DNA of 52,849 bases. It comes from a virus. Its lineage: Duplodnaviria > Heunggongvirae > Uroviricota > Caudoviricetes. Below the pieces are notes generated by a model. The model saw nothing but the letters and a program-made list of their open reading frames with translations. It searched no databases and was not told the origin of the DNA. The stretch lies in the IMG/VR virus record IMGVR_UViG_3300045988_151019; one strand, given 5' to 3'. A program made the position numbers and the translations under genes. This document shows positions 40,910-48,432 of the stretch, in pieces; the first letter of the stretch is position 1, and each line of letters opens with the position of its first letter.

Positions 40910-41200
40910 TTACGGCCTCGTAAGTTGATAAACAACCTGCGACCCGCTGCTAAACAGGTGGCAGGACGTGACGGGGTTAGCAGACTGGCACTTACGAAAC
41001 CAGCAGGCCGAAGCCTCCCCATCACGCCCCACCATAATTCGGGCGTAACGTGGTTTACGGACACAAAAATACCGCAATATCGGAAATCTGCGGTTGTCCG
41101 CGTAAGTATTCAGGCTGCTAAACCCGGTCGCAGAATTTGCTACGACGGCGGAACTATAAGCCTGAACGATTAAAAGGTCAATATGATGCGAAAAGATAGC
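40910..41200 (-). ncRNA. immI leader region expected to hold the c4 antisense RNA and its target repeats (boundaries not resolved)
   Basis: No protein-coding signal; repeated GCTGCTAAAC at 40946 and 41113; sits between operator and icd. Confidence 0.3.
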
Positions 41201-41219: not shown

Positions 41220-41236
41220 AAATTTATTAGAGCATT
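41220..41236 (-). promoter_or_regulatory. C1-type operator motif (plus strand AAATTTATTAGAGCATT)
   Basis: 16/17 consensus match. Confidence 0.55.
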
Positions 41237-41305
41237 GTGTGCTTAATAAATACACAATTGGATCTAATAACCTCTTTTTTTTAAAGGCGAAAATATGTAC
41301 CCTAA

Positions 41306-41980
41306 ATGAGTTATAAGGCAGGTGAGGTTATAATGAGAAAACTATTACTACCGTTATTATTTATGGCTGGGACTGTTAATGCAGCATCAAGCGTAAAGGA
41401 GATTTGTACCGATTATACGAAATACCTTGGGCACGTTTACGGCTTTGCTGTCAGTCAAGACGAATCCATGCGCAAGAAGTTACTGTCAGATATGAAACGC
41501 CTTAAACTTTCTGAAGCGATGGTGCAGCAAGAACTGTATAAAGTCGCAACCAACGAAAATGCTAAATATCAATATTCTCGCCTGTTAAATCCCGACGCAA
41601 ACGAGATCAATCGAAGCTCTTTCGATTATATGGTAAAGGCATGCGAAACCGCTCCTGATTTTGCTATTCCTAGCTGGGGTGTGCTGGTGGCGAGCAATGC
41701 CGTTAATAAAGAAGACGTTGGAAGAAATGGCATTGACTCAATCAGAAATGCCCCTGGAATGCGCCATCAAAACGTGCAGGGTACGCTTGAAGAGCGGGCC
41801 AGGGGGCCGGGTACAAACTCCCCAATGGGAAACCTCTCACCAGAGGAATTGCAAGAGTATAACCAACGGATGGAGCAGTATGAGAAAGCGGCACGCGAAC
41901 AAATGGAACAACAAAAGAACGGCTCACTTAATACCTTTCAGCAAGGTTTAAAAGCGCTTAATTTACCATATGAATGGTAA
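41306..41980 (+). CDS. secreted periplasmic protein, Sim (superinfection immunity)-like candidate; probable start MRKLLL at 41333
   Basis: Signal peptide MRKLLLPLLFMAGTVNA; about 24 kDa; AT-rich codon usage. Confidence 0.45.
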   Translation: MSYKAGEVIMRKLLLPLLFMAGTVNAASSVKEICTDYTKYLGHVYGFAVSQDESMRKKLLSDMKRLKLSEAMVQQELYKVATNENAKYQYSRLLNPDANEINRSSFDYMVKACETAPDFAIPSWGVLVASNAVNKEDVGRNGIDSIRNAPGMRHQNVQGTLEERARGPGTNSPMGNLSPEELQEYNQRMEQYEKAAREQMEQQKNGSLNTFQQGLKALNLPYEW

Positions 41981-42041
41981 ATATATTATGGATAACCAAT
42001 TAAAATATTGATAATCGTTAATCTCCAAAGGAGATAAATTA

Positions 42042-42518
42042 ATGCGCATCAAACGATTTTTTCTAATTCTTGCTTTGCTTACTCCATTTTCATCAATGGC
42101 AAATGTAAGCAAATGGTCAACCGGCGAGACTCATGGTGTTCGTTCTTATGCTGTTTCCAGCAAAGATAATTATACGCTTACATTTGAGTGCGATGTTGGA
42201 TTTAATAATACGGATCCCAATCAAGTAGGAACACGACTACTCACTCTCATGAAAACAGAACCTGGCGGTGAGTCATTTGATGCTAAAAAAGAACAAATAA
42301 CGCTGAAAGTTGGTGATGATGAATATCCTATAAGTTCTATCGGTTCCTCTGTGGGTGATAGTTACTGGTATGGTTTTTGGTCAGATACCCCTGATATGGA
42401 AGTAAAAACATTCGATGCATACGTAGACGGAAAAAAAATCGCAACATTTACGCTACGTAAGGCCGCAGAGCTTTTCAACGCGGCACCTGAAGATGGCTGC
42501 CTGAAGCGCGCAAAATGA
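42042..42518 (+). CDS. AT-rich secreted protein (158 aa), function unknown
   Basis: Signal peptide MRIKRFFLILALLTPFSSMA; visibly lower GC than neighbours. Confidence 0.5.
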   Translation: MRIKRFFLILALLTPFSSMANVSKWSTGETHGVRSYAVSSKDNYTLTFECDVGFNNTDPNQVGTRLLTLMKTEPGGESFDAKKEQITLKVGDDEYPISSIGSSVGDSYWYGFWSDTPDMEVKTFDAYVDGKKIATFTLRKAAELFNAAPEDGCLKRAK

Positions 42519-42524
42519 CCTGTC

Positions 42525-42545
42525 ACAAATGACTACTCGTAGAAT
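42525..42545 (+). promoter_or_regulatory. late-promoter-like motif ACAAATGACT-N5-TAGAAT, followed by 9-bp inverted repeat CGTAGAATC...GATTCTACG
   Basis: Same architecture as the other three sites. Confidence 0.45.
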
Positions 42546-44742: not shown

Positions 44743-47700
44743 ATGGAAAGAAAAAACGCCAATATTGACGATGTTATAAGGACAGTTGAAACCGCCAGCG
44801 CGAAAGAGCTGGAAGAGCTTGCAGGTATTCGGGAAGCTGTTGAAGATTTGAAAGGGGAACGAGTTGCAACTGTTGATCCTGTCTCTCGCAGTGTGTCGGC
44901 ATTAAATCGCACAATCGAAAATTCACGTCCTGACTTTGTGACCAATGTGCCATCAGTGGACTCTATTGTTGACGCAATGAAACGGCTTAATTTAGGGGAC
45001 GTTTCTCGTATACGGGAGGACAAAGTCACTAACCGTGAACAGCAGGCTGCACCAACAGCGCACAATCCCCCAAATAGACGAAGAGAGGCAATAACAGAGG
45101 ATGTTAAAGCACAGCGGTTAGAAACGGTCAAACTCGCTCGTGATTTGAAAGGGGAACGCGTTGCAACGGTTGACCCAGTATCTCGCAGTGTGTCGGCATT
45201 AAATCGAACAATCGAAAATTCCCGGCCAGACTTTGTGGCCAATGCGCCATCAGTAGACCCTATTGTTGACGCAATGAAACGGCTTAATTTAGGGGACGTT
45301 TCTCGTGTAGTTCAGGAGGGCATTGCTCAACAGGAACAGCAGGCCAAATCAACTACACCAAAGGGTAAAAAAAGACGCAGGAAGGCTATATCAGAGGATA
45401 TAAAGGCACAACGGACCGAAGCAGCCGAACACGCTCGCGAAATGTTCGATCAAAAAGGCGGTGCGCAAAAAAGCCAAAACCAACGCGATGCGCGTGGTCG
45501 TTTTATTGGAAAGTCAGGGAGTAAGGCCGCAGCGGAAGATGCCCGTGCTGAACGTGCTGAAAAGGCCAGGCGCAAAGAGGATGATGAGCGTCTAAATGCT
45601 GAATCAGGTTTATTAAAAAAACTGTCAAAAGTAGCTGAAGGCATAGGTAACCCTTCAGAGACTCGTGCCGTCGATGCGTTAGGTTATGCCGTTGCTGGTC
45701 CATTGTGGGCAGCAGGGAAGGAGCTTGGCGGGATATCAAAAGAAGTTGGTAGATCGCTTAATGGCGCCAGAAAGTCTATTGCCGATGTGATTCGTGGCAA
45801 TGACGATAACAGCCGTAGAAAAGGTTTTTTTAGGCGTAAATCGCAAAATAGTGCCGATGTCGTTCAGGTTAACACCCAAAAACGGACGGTTCAGGAACTT
45901 CAGGAGCAGACCAGCGAAATTAAAGAGGGCAATGACAAGATTCTCAGCGCCCTTGATCAGATAGCCAAAAACACCGGGAAAAAGAAGGGCGGCTTGCTGT
46001 CCAAACTATTTAGCCTGTTAGGGAAGGGGGCCGGTGGCGTCGCGTCGTTGTTAATGGGGCGTGGCATGCTGAAAAAAGCTGGAGCACTCGCTTTTGGCGC
46101 TCTGGGGGCAAAGAAACTTGTAGGAATGCTACGCGGTGGTGGCAAGAAGACTATCGCCCATGAAGGTGGAGATTTGGCTGCCCGGGCAGCAGGTAAATTT
46201 GGATTAAAGGCAGTTGGTAAAGGGGCGTTACGCGCAATTCCCTTAGTCGGCACAGTGGCTGGAGGTATTTATGATGCGGTAACCGGTTGGAATGATACAG
46301 AAGCGCAACGTCGAGCGTTTGGGCTTAAATCAGGACAAGAGCCATCATTCCAGCAAAAAGCCGCTTATACGTTAGCCAATGTTCTTGATATGGGGGGACT
46401 GGTATCTGGTATTAGCAGCGCCATTGGTGAGGTTCTCAAATCACTTGGATTTGAGGATATCGGCAATATGTTGCAATCATTTTCGACGGAAAGTATTGCC
46501 CAGGCCATTGATAGTGGGATTACCAACTTAGAAACATATATTTCTAACCTTGGCGACACCATTTCTACCAAGTTCGAAGATTACACAGCAAAGATTGGTG
46601 ATGCTGTTTCAGCATGGTTTAGCGATACATCTAATAAGCTGCTTGAAAAGCTGGATGCCATCAAAGACTTCTTTACTGTTGATAACCTGAAACAGGTTTT
46701 CAGTGATGCAATTGATAGTGCAATTGATTTCATTAAGAACCCAGGGAAACACATTAAAGAGGCGGCTGGTAATATTTGGGATGGGGTTAAAAATTTACCT
46801 GGTAAAGCATTAGATGCAGCGGTTGATGCCGTTAAAAATACCCCTGCGGCAATGATTGTATCAAAAATACCCAATCCGATCGGCGAGGCTAATGCGAAAG
46901 AAATCACTCCGGAGTTAAAAGCTCCGGTTAATAGCCACCAGGAGACGTCTGATTCTAAAACTGAATCCGATGCCAAACAGAGTAATATTGCTACCCGCGT
47001 GATAAATGCGGCACTGGACACAGCGAAAGATAGCAATAAAACAGTTAAACAAACTGCCAATCAGATTATCAATGCAAATGCCGTAGAAACGGGCAATAGC
47101 GCGTTGCAGAAAATTGATAAAGCTATTGGTCAAAATAGCTCGTCATCATCGTCGCTTAATACCACTGGCACCAGGAATGACATTCAGAAAGCTGCGGATA
47201 CTTACAACAATGGCAACTTAGATGTAAAAGTCGGAAGTCTTGGCGCTGAAGGTAAGGCAAATCTCGATAAGTTGGCTCCGTATTTTGCCGAACTAGAGAA
47301 TAAATACGGTCTTCCAGAAGGCACTCTTTACGCGATTGCTGCAACTGAATCTGGTGGTAATCCGTATGCAAAATCCCAAACCGGTGCTCTGGGGATGTTT
47401 CAGTTCACGGGGATTGCTCGTGAAGAGACTGGCTTAGCTGAAGGTGAATCGTTTGATCCTGTGAAATCGGCAGAAGCTGCGGCTCTTCTCATGAGCAAGT
47501 ATCTTAAGCAAGCCAATGGAGACTTAAACGAGGCCATCACTGCATATAATGCTGGGTTTGGCACTATTAATAAGTGGAAAAAAGGCACCGGTGACTTATC
47601 GAAAGAAAACCGTGAGTACGCGATCAAGGTCAATACTCATCGTGCTCGCTATTTAGGTGGTGAAATCTATACACCTGGAGCAGGAGCACAGGGTGGGGCG

Positions 47701-48432
47701 CAATATGGAGTGAGGGGACCACTGCCTGATAACGCTGTTATCGATCAGTATACTGGCCTGGCGTTTACCCCTGGTGATAGCCCGTTTGAGAAAGGCGGTC
47801 TGGTCGACAAAATCGGCAATGCTGTTGGCGTTAACGATCTGGTCAACAAATTCATGAATGGCCGGGGGATGCGTCGGGAAGTCGTTCAGGGAACGCTAGA
47901 AGAACGTGCACGAGAGAAGGGGACCGCAACAGCAGCTGGCAATGTGTATGTTGATACTCCGATGCCAGTTGAAGAGGCGCGTCCGGTGGCCAACAACTCA
48001 AGTTACTTTGACCATCTCGGCGCACAAATGGGGATTGATGGACTATTCGATAAACTCCGCAACTCGCCGGGGATGCGGAAAAATAATGCGCCTGAACCAG
48101 CCTCCACGTCCCAGGTGACGACTGCCGCCAACGATTTGCAGCAACCAACCGGTCGTATGCAGATAGACGGGCAGGTTATTAGTGACCTTGGCGGTTCCGG
48201 TGCCAAGCCGACAATGCAGTTGGCTGATAATACCGTTTCACTTGATGGTGAAACGAAGCGGCTGTTTGCGCAGATGACCTCATTGCTTGCCAGGATTGAA
48301 GAGCACACCAAAGACTCGGCGAAAGGCCAGGGAACTGTCGTAAAGGTCAGCACGCCTCAGCCGGGCGTTATGCGCACGGTACCACTGTCAATTGATGATC
48401 CGTTGATGAATGACTACGCGAGAGTTGATTGA
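44743..48432 (+). CDS. sit: tape-measure-like injection protein with lytic transglycosylase domain (Sit)
   Basis: 1229 aa; Gly/Ala-rich central segment; SLT motif AIAATESGGNPYAKSQTGALGMFQFT...AYNAG; internal 297-bp tandem duplication. Confidence 0.8.
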   Translation: MERKNANIDDVIRTVETASAKELEELAGIREAVEDLKGERVATVDPVSRSVSALNRTIENSRPDFVTNVPSVDSIVDAMKRLNLGDVSRIREDKVTNREQQAAPTAHNPPNRRREAITEDVKAQRLETVKLARDLKGERVATVDPVSRSVSALNRTIENSRPDFVANAPSVDPIVDAMKRLNLGDVSRVVQEGIAQQEQQAKSTTPKGKKRRRKAISEDIKAQRTEAAEHAREMFDQKGGAQKSQNQRDARGRFIGKSGSKAAAEDARAERAEKARRKEDDERLNAESGLLKKLSKVAEGIGNPSETRAVDALGYAVAGPLWAAGKELGGISKEVGRSLNGARKSIADVIRGNDDNSRRKGFFRRKSQNSADVVQVNTQKRTVQELQEQTSEIKEGNDKILSALDQIAKNTGKKKGGLLSKLFSLLGKGAGGVASLLMGRGMLKKAGALAFGALGAKKLVGMLRGGGKKTIAHEGGDLAARAAGKFGLKAVGKGALRAIPLVGTVAGGIYDAVTGWNDTEAQRRAFGLKSGQEPSFQQKAAYTLANVLDMGGLVSGISSAIGEVLKSLGFEDIGNMLQSFSTESIAQAIDSGITNLETYISNLGDTISTKFEDYTAKIGDAVSAWFSDTSNKLLEKLDAIKDFFTVDNLKQVFSDAIDSAIDFIKNPGKHIKEAAGNIWDGVKNLPGKALDAAVDAVKNTPAAMIVSKIPNPIGEANAKEITPELKAPVNSHQETSDSKTESDAKQSNIATRVINAALDTAKDSNKTVKQTANQIINANAVETGNSALQKIDKAIGQNSSSSSSLNTTGTRNDIQKAADTYNNGNLDVKVGSLGAEGKANLDKLAPYFAELENKYGLPEGTLYAIAATESGGNPYAKSQTGALGMFQFTGIAREETGLAEGESFDPVKSAEAAALLMSKYLKQANGDLNEAITAYNAGFGTINKWKKGTGDLSKENREYAIKVNTHRARYLGGEIYTPGAGAQGGAQYGVRGPLPDNAVIDQYTGLAFTPGDSPFEKGGLVDKIGNAVGVNDLVNKFMNGRGMRREVVQGTLEERAREKGTATAAGNVYVDTPMPVEEARPVANNSSYFDHLGAQMGIDGLFDKLRNSPGMRKNNAPEPASTSQVTTAANDLQQPTGRMQIDGQVISDLGGSGAKPTMQLADNTVSLDGETKRLFAQMTSLLARIEEHTKDSAKGQGTVVKVSTPQPGVMRTVPLSIDDPLMNDYARVD
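44845..45438 (+). repeat. tandem direct duplication (2 x 297 bp) inside sit
   Basis: Units 44845-45141 and 45142-45438 encode DLKGERVATVDPVSRSVSALNRTIENSRPDFV...MKRLNLGDVSR twice. Confidence 0.8.

What the first reader, a model, noticed from the sequence alone, without database searches (positions are those of the whole stretch)
41306..42518. Two AT-rich genes for secreted proteins look like acquired morons
Both ORFs have classical signal peptides and markedly lower GC than the flanking tail genes. They sit between the immunity operator and a late-promoter motif. The second (158 aa mature about 138 aa, two Cys) has no assignable function; it could be a periplasmic exclusion factor or lysozyme-inhibitor-like protein.
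Basis: partly seen in the sequence, partly recalled or inferred. Interest (0 to 1): 0.45.

Follow-up and report, generated by a model that had tools for sequence, protein, structure and literature searches.

The report
Secreted-protein cassette in P1 sim slot
The two genes are real, low-GC genes for exported proteins that fill the known, swappable "superimmunity" slot of a P1-like phage-plasmid, and the first carries a short copy of a motif from the phage's own DNA-injection protein, which suggests (but does not show) that it blocks entry of rival P1-like phages.

Summary
The window is a P1-like phage-plasmid. The two ORFs lie exactly between the C1 operator Oc4 (41220-41236) and the late promoter LPsit (42527-42545). 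This is the slot that holds simA-simB-simC in P1 and two other exported proteins in P7, and it is a published hypervariable, low-GC region.

- **GC:** the span is 41.8% GC against 47.9% for the window (0.6th percentile). ORF2 is clearly low (41.1%, GC3 30%); ORF1 only mildly (44.4%).
- **ORF1:** it most likely starts at ATG 41333 (215 aa). It is the full-length form of the gene that survives in P1 as the truncated "simA" stub.
- **ORF1 build:** a signal peptide, a confidently modelled helical domain with no fold match, then a disordered stretch.
- **The motif:** that stretch carries a ~40-aa motif shared with the tape-measure/injection protein Sit (reciprocal profile E about 1e-7).
- **ORF2:** a YfjT-family (PF27224) exported protein of unknown function. 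It shows no fold match to lysozyme inhibitors.
- **History:** the pair recurs at this position in divergent P1/D6-like phages, and ORF1 is under strong purifying selection. So it is a long-standing cassette, not a recent acquisition.

The most likely role is periplasmic superinfection exclusion aimed at Sit-mediated DNA entry. This is inferred, not shown.

The parts
40954..41039 (-). c4 antisense RNA of the immI operon (left-hand neighbour, context only)
   Evidence: Rfam RF01695, 70.8 bits, E 3e-13. It differs from P1 c4 at 8 of 77 positions.
41220..41236 (.). C1 repressor operator Oc4 (Op51). Left boundary of the variable slot.
   Evidence: Exact match to the annotated P1 Oc4. The P7 sequence diverges from P1 and the window immediately after it.
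41242..41268 (+). Counterpart of the predicted sigma-70 promoter PsimA of P1
   Evidence: 2 mismatches to the P1 annotated PsimA. It was not found by the generic promoter scan. Prediction only.
41333..41980 (+). ORF1, full-length SimA-family protein (215 aa; phrog_3933). An alternative in-frame ATG lies at 41306.
   Evidence: dN/dS about 0.05 over 14 alleles.
41333..41383 (+). ORF1 signal peptide (aa 1-17, predicted cleavage VNA|AS)
   Evidence: Sequence inspection and hydropathy. Conserved in homologues. pLDDT below 50.
41384..41695 (+). ORF1 conserved helical N-domain (aa 18-121) with invariant C25 and C104
41696..41836 (+). ORF1 Sit-like motif (aa 122-168: ...GIDSIRNAPGMRHQNVQGTLEERARGPGTNSPMGN)
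   Evidence: BLASTP to Sit aa 1026-1068, 47% identity. Hit to phrog_2533 (Sit family), E 8e-8. Reciprocal hit, E 1.5e-7. Low pLDDT, modelled as disordered. 51.8% GC.
41837..41977 (+). ORF1 variable C-terminal tail (aa 169-215, predicted long helix, ends LNLPYEW)
   Evidence: The tails differ between family members.
42042..42518 (+). ORF2, YfjT-family (PF27224, phrog_3429) exported protein, 158 aa
   Evidence: AF2 beta-rich model, pLDDT 76.8.
42042..42101 (+). ORF2 signal peptide (aa 1-20, predicted cleavage SMA|NV)
   Evidence: Sequence inspection and hydropathy. pLDDT below 50 for residues 1-21.
42527..42545 (+). Late promoter LPsit. Right boundary of the variable slot.
   Evidence: Exact match to the annotated P1 LPsit. 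P1, P7 and the window become identical from 42524 onward.
47818..47946 (+). Motif copy 1 in the tape-measure/injection protein Sit (aa 1026-1068), about 70 aa after the SLT domain
48028..48087 (+). Motif copy 2 in Sit (aa 1096-1115: GIDGLFDKLRNSPGMRKN)
   Evidence: Second stretch of the phrog_3933 hit.

Best explanation
The region is the resident cassette of the P1-family 'sim' (superimmunity) slot, a recombination-swappable low-GC segment bounded by the C1 operator Oc4 and the late promoter LPsit.

It encodes a two-gene operon for Sec-exported, probably disulfide-bonded periplasmic proteins.
- ORF1 is the full-length SimA-family protein. It has a helical N-domain, then a flexible linker carrying a copy of a peptide motif also found twice just downstream of the lytic-transglycosylase domain of the phage's own tape-measure/injection protein Sit, then a variable tail.
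- ORF2 is a YfjT-family beta-rich protein.

Most likely function (inferred): superinfection exclusion of P1-like phages at the DNA-entry step. When an incoming phage ejects Sit into the periplasm, ORF1 would act through its Sit-like peptide. It could work as a decoy that occupies whatever periplasmic or inner-membrane partner that part of Sit needs, or it could dock onto Sit itself. ORF2 sits where SimC sits in other variants and may be an alternative or co-acting effector.

Shown here: locus identity, export signals by sequence, family relations, the shared motif, conservation and purifying selection.

Inferred: periplasmic location, expression in lysogens, any exclusion phenotype, and the decoy mechanism.

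The confidence of 0.45 refers to the exclusion function. The identity of the locus as a sim-slot cassette is about 0.95. The specific mimicry mechanism is about 0.2.
For: Locus:
- The window matches P1-like phages.
- Gene order icd-c4-Oc4 | slot | LPsit-pmgC-tub-pmgB-sit is the same as in P1, P7 and Ro157c2YLVW.
- P1 SimA aa 10-50 matches ORF1 aa 1-41 at 93% identity and then diverges.
- NCBI and UniRef name ORF1 homologues 'simA domain protein'.
- One variant (L046) has a full-length SimA-like gene directly followed by a SimC homologue. ORF1 therefore belongs to the sim operon, and YfjT-like and SimC-like genes alternate as the second gene.

Published background:
- Sim prevents DNA injection by superinfecting P1 (PMC8546580, citing Devlin 1982 and Kliem & Dreiseikelmann 1989).
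- The sim genes are non-essential (PMC10695390).
- simABC is a hypervariable low-GC region (PMC9603915).

Export: n-h-c signal peptides with AXA-type sites and invariant Cys pairs in both proteins.

Motif:
- ORF1 to the Sit family, E 8e-8.
- Sit C-end to the ORF1 family, E 1.5e-7, two stretches.
- BLASTP 47% identity over 47 aa.
- The core (F.N..GMR.Q) is kept in all full-length family members.
- Sit is the ejected tape-measure protein with the SLT domain (PMC9024508, PMC12810830). ORF1 is exported and Sit has no signal peptide, so the two can only meet in the periplasm during infection (inference).

Real, selected genes:
- ORF1 dN/dS about 0.05. ORF2 dN/dS about 0.44, with 4 of its 9 variable positions in the signal peptide.
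- The pair is conserved in divergent P1/D6-like phages of Salmonella, Klebsiella and Enterobacter.
- The stop and start are 2 nt apart in L080.

Precedent: exclusion proteins that bind tape-measure proteins, such as T4 Imm (bioRxiv 10.64898/2026.03.06.709160).
Against: - No experimental phenotype exists for either protein, and every database entry found is 'hypothetical'.
- There are no hits in PADLOC or NCBIfam.
- Neither protein is related to SimB or SimC, so the Sim phenotype cannot be transferred by homology.
- In P1 the sim phenotype works with SimA truncated, so a SimA-type protein is not needed for SimC action.
- Expression in the lysogen is unknown. The only promoter is a weak prediction next to a C1 operator.
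- The ORF1 motif does not co-vary with the Sit of its own genome (own 0.47 against other 0.45, permutation p 0.13, n=9).
- About half of the family keeps only the ~10-aa core of the motif.
- YfjT relatives also occur outside P1-like phages, for example in K-12 CP4-57. ORF2 therefore need not be P1-specific.
Confidence: 0.45

Rival explanations
1. The two proteins are lysogenic-conversion or fitness cargo unrelated to phage exclusion. They would be periplasmic proteins that change envelope properties of the host (stress tolerance, colicin or serum resistance, colonisation), carried in a cargo slot as classical morons are.
For: - Low GC and low GC3, especially ORF2.
- The slot holds unrelated exported proteins in different phages: the P7 lipoprotein plus DUF5384, and a 357-aa SH3-like protein in type B.
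- YfjT relatives occur in the cryptic prophage CP4-57 and in other enterobacterial contigs.
- The literature treats the slot as a cargo hot spot (PMC9603915).
Against: - It does not explain the Sit-like motif in ORF1.
- The pair is conserved with the backbone across divergent P1/D6-like phages rather than being sporadic.
- The only functionally studied occupant of the slot is an exclusion system.
Confidence: 0.25
2. One or both proteins inhibit the lytic transglycosylase of incoming Sit. This would be a periplasmic muramidase inhibitor, working like T4 Sp or Ivy/MliC-type inhibitors, so that the cell wall is not breached. It is the first reader's 'lysozyme-inhibitor-like' idea and a sub-type of exclusion.
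For: - Sit carries an SLT domain at aa 847-956.
- The motif shared with ORF1 lies in a stretch just after it that is conserved in other phage transglycosylase families (phrog_13449, phrog_669). It could therefore be an SLT-associated element.
- ORF2 is a small beta-rich periplasmic protein with one Cys pair, the general build of such inhibitors.
Against: - The profile search against PDB sequences finds nothing.
- The ORF1 N-domain has no fold match either.
- There is no sequence motif of known inhibitor families. The Pfam hit to Pepsin-I3 has E 0.011 and is below cutoff.
Confidence: 0.12
3. The genes serve the phage's own lytic cycle, not the lysogen. They would be expressed early or late during lytic growth to modify the envelope, for example to time lysis, protect against lysis from without, or prevent progeny from re-adsorbing and injecting into the dying cell.
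For: - The genes point the same way as, and lie directly upstream of, the late tail operon, with no terminator between.
- The putative promoter abuts a C1 operator, so it may be off in lysogens.
Against: - In P1 the sim genes are dispensable for plaque formation (PMC10695390).
- The slot is replaced by unrelated cassettes without loss of phage viability.
- LPsit lies downstream of the cassette, so late transcription does not need to cross it.
Confidence: 0.1
4. The genes are recently acquired foreign DNA with little or no function in this phage, that is, decaying passengers.
For: - Low GC.
- Truncated or frameshifted ORF1 alleles exist: the P1 stub, 163-aa type B alleles and 205-aa frameshift alleles.
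Against: - ORF1 dN/dS is about 0.05 over 14 alleles.
- There are 81 PLSDB plasmids and 24 IMG/VR loci with the intact pair.
- Orthologous pairs occur in divergent lineages.
- Cys pairs and motifs are invariant.
Confidence: 0.04

Closest known systems
P1 sim (superimmunity) locus, simA-simB-simC
   Same: - Same slot, orientation and boundaries: Oc4 operator on the left, LPsit on the right.
- Same 5' end: P1 SimA aa 10-50 is 93% identical to ORF1 aa 1-41.
- Both encode signal-peptide proteins.
- The slot has low GC (PMC9603915).
   Different: - ORF1 is full-length (215 aa), whereas P1 SimA is a 43/52-aa stub.
- There is no SimB or SimC homologue here. ORF2 is a YfjT-family protein instead.
- The Sim phenotype has been shown only for the P1 cassette.
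Escherichia phage vB_EcoM-Ro157c2YLVW gp35/gp34 and P1-like phage-plasmids of E. coli
   Same: - Same two genes, at 99% and 97% amino-acid identity.
- 81 PLSDB plasmids carry the whole cassette at 90-99.9% DNA identity.
   Different: Nothing material. All are annotated 'hypothetical protein', so no function can be borrowed.
E. coli K-12 YfjT (CP4-57 cryptic prophage), Pfam PF27224
   Same: - ORF2 and its homologues carry PF27224:YfjT.
- BLASTP gives 24% identity over 148 aa to K-12 YfjT.
- Same size, signal peptide and Cys pair.
- Both are prophage-borne and sit next to another exported protein.
   Different: - YfjT lies in an integrated P4-like cryptic prophage next to the lipoprotein YfjS, not next to a SimA-type gene.
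- Its function is unknown (y-ome).
Exclusion proteins that target the tape-measure protein of incoming phage (T4 Imm; also HK97 gp15 and Ltp of TP-J34, the latter two from my own knowledge)
   Same: - Proposed site and stage of action: the envelope, after adsorption, blocking DNA translocation that depends on the ejected tape-measure protein.
- T4 Imm binds the TMP (bioRxiv 10.64898/2026.03.06.709160).
   Different: - No sequence or fold relation was found.
- Those proteins are membrane proteins or lipoproteins, whereas ORF1 and ORF2 look like soluble periplasmic proteins.
- None of them is reported to carry a copy of a TMP motif. Binding is untested here.
P7 slot cassette Upf50.5 (lipoprotein) and Upf50.0 (DUF5384)
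   Same: Same slot and the same logic: two exported proteins with annotated signal peptides between Oc4 and LPsit.
   Different: Unrelated sequences. The P7 cassette replaces even the simA 5' end.

Membership tests
P1 sim (superimmunity) locus | Position between the C1 operator Oc4 of immI and the late promoter LPsit, transcribed towards the tail operon | tested here: met
   Exact Oc4 at 41220-41236 and exact LPsit at 42527-42545. Synteny with P1.
P1 sim (superimmunity) locus | simA reading frame at the 5' end | tested here: met
   P1 SimA aa 10-50 is 93% identical to ORF1 aa 1-41. Homologues are named 'simA domain protein'.
P1 sim (superimmunity) locus | Presence of SimC, the processed periplasmic protein that confers the Sim phenotype (and of SimB) | tested here: not met
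   No BLASTP similarity of ORF1 or ORF2 to SimB or SimC beyond E 0.35. A SimC homologue does follow a SimA-like gene in L046.
P1 sim (superimmunity) locus | Superinfection exclusion of P1 after adsorption | not testable with these tools
   Needs plating and DNA-entry assays.
YfjT family (Pfam PF27224), for ORF2 | Significant match to the family model or to the founding member | tested here: met
   - Precomputed PF27224 on the 99%-identical P0029 and all other homologues.
- Named 'YfjT'.
- BLASTP to K-12 YfjT gives 24% identity, E 1e-10 in a small database.
- The local Pfam copy lacks the model.
Sec (SPase I) signal peptide proteins | Positively charged n-region, hydrophobic h-region of 10-13 residues, small residues at positions -3 and -1, no lipobox | tested here: met
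   By inspection and hydropathy, and conserved in homologues. No dedicated predictor was available. Cleavage is not testable here.
Moron (independent transcription unit added to a phage genome) | Deviant base composition | tested here: met
   Span 41.8% against 47.9%, the 0.6th percentile. ORF2 GC3 is 30%.
Moron (independent transcription unit added to a phage genome) | Own promoter and own terminator | tested here: inconclusive
   There is only a counterpart of the predicted PsimA, with 2 mismatches. The generic scan finds no promoter upstream of ORF1 and no + strand terminator after ORF2.
Moron (independent transcription unit added to a phage genome) | Insertion relative to otherwise collinear relatives (presence or absence) | tested here: not met
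   Relatives have replacement cassettes, not an empty site. The pair is present in divergent lineages, with backbone-like divergence.
Periplasmic lysozyme / lytic-transglycosylase inhibitors (Ivy, MliC/PliC, PliG) | Fold or sequence similarity to a member | tested here: not met
- The A2 profile search against PDB sequences gives no hit.
- Pfam gives nothing.
PTP-like phytase (PF14566), for ORF1 | Score above the gathering threshold, and the catalytic HCX5R loop | tested here: not met
   - 26.5 bits against a cutoff of 27, over a partial profile.
- No CX5R motif in the sequence.
- Divergent family members give no such hit.
Tape-measure-targeting superinfection exclusion proteins | Physical or genetic interaction with the tape-measure protein of the excluded phage | not testable with these tools
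   There is only an indirect hint, the shared motif between ORF1 and Sit.

The most novel reading that the evidence does not exclude
ORF1 (full-length SimA) is a molecular mimic of the phage's own tape-measure/injection protein. A prophage would export into the periplasm a decoy carrying the Sit post-SLT motif ((K/E)F.N..GMR..VQGTLEERA), and the decoy would jam the step at which ejected Sit engages its periplasmic or inner-membrane partner (or Sit itself). That would exclude related phages. It would also define a previously unrecognised functional element in the P1 tape-measure protein, and it would explain 'simA' as a relic of this system.
Probability: 0.2. Interest if true: 0.7.

Novelty: new member of a known kind. 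Interest (0 to 1): 0.42.

Why it matters
P1-like phage-plasmids are widespread carriers of resistance genes, and P1 is a workhorse of E. coli genetics. Even so, the commonest alternative occupant of its superimmunity slot (81 PLSDB plasmids) is annotated only as two hypothetical proteins.

If the pair excludes related phages, that would bear on which P1-like elements can coexist or displace each other.

The shared ORF1/Sit motif gives a concrete handle on a poorly understood step: what the ejected tape-measure protein of a contractile-tailed phage does in the periplasm. That part of Sit is unresolved in the published P1 structures (PMC12810830).

The analysis also accounts for the origin of the short P1 gene simA, and gives the E. 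coli y-ome protein YfjT a testable context.

Tried and rejected
- **PTP-like phytase hit for ORF1.** It is below cutoff, has no catalytic motif, and is absent from divergent homologues. Rejected as spurious.
- **PDB sequence searches.** Nothing for A1 or A2, and only MltC-type SLT hits for Sit.
- **PADLOC and NCBIfam.** No family for either protein.
- **Recent gene conversion between sit and ORF1.** The DNA is only about 70% identical over 53 nt, and blastn finds nothing. Rejected; the similarity is at protein level.
- **Co-variation of the ORF1 motif with the Sit of the same genome.** Own 0.47 against other 0.45, permutation p 0.13, n=9. Inconclusive to negative. An early impression from P0028 against the L051 Sit did not generalise.
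- **Big-database search with the motif profile (A5).** It returned only four short ORF1-family fragments. Uninformative about wider distribution.
- **The genome-contig scan.** Only 4 loci. IMG/VR was the useful source.
- **Flanking repeats or recombination sites around the cassette.** None found.
- **Hidden RNA genes in the region.** None; only c4 and its targets to the left.
- **Lobocka 2004 P1 genome paper.** Not held in the library, so statements on sim biology rest on secondary citations and my own knowledge.
Full report
**What the window is.** DNA 40900-42700 matches P1-like phages (Punavirus). It is 96.3% identical over its full length to Escherichia phage vB_EcoM-Ro157c2YLVW, and matches P1 and P7 only at the flanks (42% and 29% coverage). 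The annotated records show the same gene order in all of them: repL-kilA-ant1/2-icd-c4 on one strand, then a variable segment, then pmgC-tub-pmgB-sit on the other strand. In P1 the variable segment is simA-simB-simC. In P7 it is upf50.5 (a lipoprotein) and upf50.0 (DUF5384). In Ro157c2YLVW and in this window it is two 'hypothetical' genes.

**Checking the observation.**
- *ORFs.* Both are present. ORF1 is listed from ATG 41306, but the ATG at 41333 is the better start. It has the RBS AGGTGAGG, it is the start shared by all divergent homologues, and RefSeq uses it for the closest phage. That gives 215 aa. ORF2 is 42042-42518 (158 aa).
- *Signal peptides.* Both N-termini have the n-h-c layout of Sec signal peptides with AXA-type sites (VNA|AS after residue 17; SMA|NV after residue 20). 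Neither has a lipobox or a further hydrophobic segment.
The Cys pairs of both proteins are invariant in their families.
- *GC.* The span is 41.8% GC against 47.9% for the window, which is the 0.6th percentile of same-length windows. ORF2 is 41.1% (GC3 30%). ORF1 is only 44.4% (11.5th percentile). The flanking tail genes are 47-49%.
- *Landmarks.* P1's Oc4 operator occurs exactly at 41220-41236 and P1's late promoter LPsit exactly at 42527-42545. The c4 RNA and its a1/b1 targets lie just to the left.

**A known, swappable slot.** Alignments show that P7 diverges from P1 and the window right after Oc4, and that all three become identical again from 42524, just upstream of LPsit. No repeats flank the cassette. 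The literature lists simABC among eight hypervariable, low-GC regions of P1-like phage-plasmids (PMC9603915). It reports the sim genes as non-essential (PMC10695390). It describes Sim as preventing DNA injection by superinfecting phage (PMC8546580, citing Devlin 1982 and Kliem & Dreiseikelmann 1989).

**ORF1 is full-length SimA.**
- P1 SimA (52 aa as annotated) matches ORF1 residues 1-41 at 93% identity and then diverges and stops. P1's simA is therefore the 5' stub left when simB-simC replaced the rest of the cassette.
- ORF1 homologues form one PHROG (phrog_3933, E 5e-137). Some are named 'simA domain protein', and they sit on contigs of about 90 kb from E. coli, Salmonella and Klebsiella.
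- The family has a signal peptide and a conserved domain (aa ~18-128; invariant C25 and C104). It then has a nearly invariant N-x-x-G-M-R-[HQ]-Q element, followed by variable tails.
- AlphaFold2 models the N-domain as a helical bundle with pLDDT 88-97, the next ~40 residues as disordered, and the tail as a low-confidence helix.
- No fold relative was found and no PDB sequence relative. A near-threshold Pfam hit to PTP-like phytase is spurious.

**The Sit-like motif.**
- ORF1 aa 122-168 (…GIDSIRNAPGMRHQNVQGTLEERARGPGTNSPMGN…) resembles aa 1026-1068 of the phage's own Sit protein at 47% identity. More weakly, it resembles a second copy at aa 1096-1115.
- The match holds at profile level in both directions. 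ORF1 hits the Sit PHROG (phrog_2533) at E 8e-8. The C-terminal 240 aa of Sit hits the ORF1 PHROG at E 1.5e-7 with two stretches.
- In Sit the motif lies about 70 residues after the SLT domain (aa 847-956). That stretch is also conserved in other phage transglycosylase families (phrog_13449, phrog_669).
- The DNA is only about 70% identical over 53 nt. This is old, protein-level similarity, not recent gene conversion.
- The segment is GC-richer (51.8%) than the rest of ORF1 (42-43%).
- The motif does not track the Sit variant of its own genome, and about half the family keeps only the ~10-residue core.
- Sit is the ejected tape-measure protein that carries P1's muralytic activity, and it is unresolved in the published virion structures (PMC9024508, PMC12810830).

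**ORF2 is a YfjT-family protein.**
- All homologues carry the precomputed Pfam PF27224, named YfjT. ORF2 is 24% identical over 148 aa to E. coli K-12 YfjT, which lies in the cryptic prophage CP4-57 next to the lipoprotein YfjS.
- An exhaustive profile search of 1.84 billion representatives finds only 27 relatives at E up to 1e-3. The 12 retrieved were ~150-aa proteins with signal peptides and the same Cys pair, apart from one spurious repeat protein.
- YfjT is uncharacterised in the literature searched.

**Conservation and linkage.** Among 69 IMG/VR loci that contain a SimA N-terminus, four arrangements recur:

| Arrangement | Number of loci |
|---|---|
| The window's pair | 24 |
| ORF1 cut at 163 aa + a YfjT relative + a 357-aa protein | 13 |
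| The P1 arrangement (stub + simB + simC) | 24 |
| Divergent SimA-like + YfjT-like pairs | several |

- More divergent pairs were fetched from Salmonella, Klebsiella and other contigs.
- In those divergent phages the cassette proteins are about as diverged (59-81% and 34-63% identity) as PmgC (76%), PmgB (73%) and Sit (about 48%). The pair is therefore an old resident rather than a recent import.
- One variant couples a full-length SimA-like gene with a SimC homologue. YfjT-like and SimC-like genes thus alternate as the second gene of one operon.
- ORF1 is under strong purifying selection (dN/dS about 0.05). ORF2 is less constrained (about 0.44), with 4 of its 9 variable positions in the signal peptide.
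- 81 PLSDB plasmids carry the whole cassette, always as 'hypothetical protein (x2)'.

**Interpretation.** The best-supported reading is an alternative cassette of the P1 superimmunity slot that encodes two periplasmic proteins.
- An exclusion role is inferred from position, from export, from linkage to SimC in a relative, and from the Sit-like peptide on an exported protein. ORF1 and Sit can only meet in the periplasm during infection.
- Tape-measure-directed exclusion is a known kind of mechanism: T4 Imm binds its TMP (bioRxiv 10.64898/2026.03.06.709160). Mimicry of the tape measure would be a new twist, to which I give about 0.2.
- The rivals cannot be excluded without experiments. They are generic envelope cargo, a transglycosylase inhibitor, and a lytic-cycle helper.
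- Expression in lysogens is unknown. Only a counterpart of P1's predicted PsimA lies next to Oc4, and no terminator follows ORF2.

**Verdict.** The finding is real and correctly located, but it lies in an already described variable region. The 'acquired moron' label is only partly apt.

Three points add to what I found in the literature searched:
1. simA is a relic of a conserved 215-aa exported protein.
2. That protein shares a motif with the tape-measure/injection protein Sit.
3. The partner gene belongs to the YfjT family.

Interest is moderate.

Noticed in passing
window 44845-45414 (inside sit, 44743-48432): Sit carries a 297-bp tandem duplication (1.9 copies, 81% match). This makes it 1229 aa against 1140 aa in P1. 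Many IMG/VR relatives lack one copy. It is a tape-measure length polymorphism that should change tail length.
   Followed up: partly
window 40954-41039 (- strand): The c4 antisense RNA (Rfam RF01695, 70.8 bits) differs from P1 c4 at 8 of 77 positions, so it may have a different immI specificity. An isrK-like match (47.9 bits, below the gathering score of 50) overlaps the a1/b1 target region at 41065-41146.
   Followed up: no
L046 10001-11451: This slot variant has a full-length SimA-like gene (212 aa, Cys-containing tail) followed directly by a SimC homologue (260 aa). It links the SimA family to the sim operon.
   Followed up: partly
L030 10001-12147 (same in L031-L042): This slot variant has ORF1 truncated at 163 aa just after the Sit-like motif. 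It also has a 168-aa YfjT relative (28% identity to ORF2) and an extra 357-aa protein with a hydrophobic segment and an SH3-like C-terminus.
   Followed up: no
L081 10682-11616 (E. coli K-12 CP4-57) and L003 3121-4185 (P7): Pairs of adjacent exported proteins recur in prophage cargo positions. K-12 has the lipoprotein YfjS plus YfjT. P7 has the lipoprotein Upf50.5 plus the DUF5384 protein Upf50.0.
   Followed up: no
window 41661-41951 (+1 frame of ORF1); proteins P0002-P0008: Several database ORF1 alleles of 205 aa switch after the GMR motif into the overlapping frame seen as a 96-aa ORF in the window. They are frameshift variants or assembly errors that remove the normal tail.
   Followed up: no
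window 41957-41977 (ORF1 C-terminus): ORF1 ends in LNLPYEW. This ending is conserved in a 58%-identical Salmonella homologue (P0013). The unrelated P7 slot protein Upf50.0 ends in SSWW. An aromatic C-terminus on exported proteins might be a shared signal.
   Followed up: no
L077 10768-11121: In one divergent relative, a 117-aa ORF with several hydrophobic segments is inserted between the SimA-like and YfjT-like genes.
   Followed up: no
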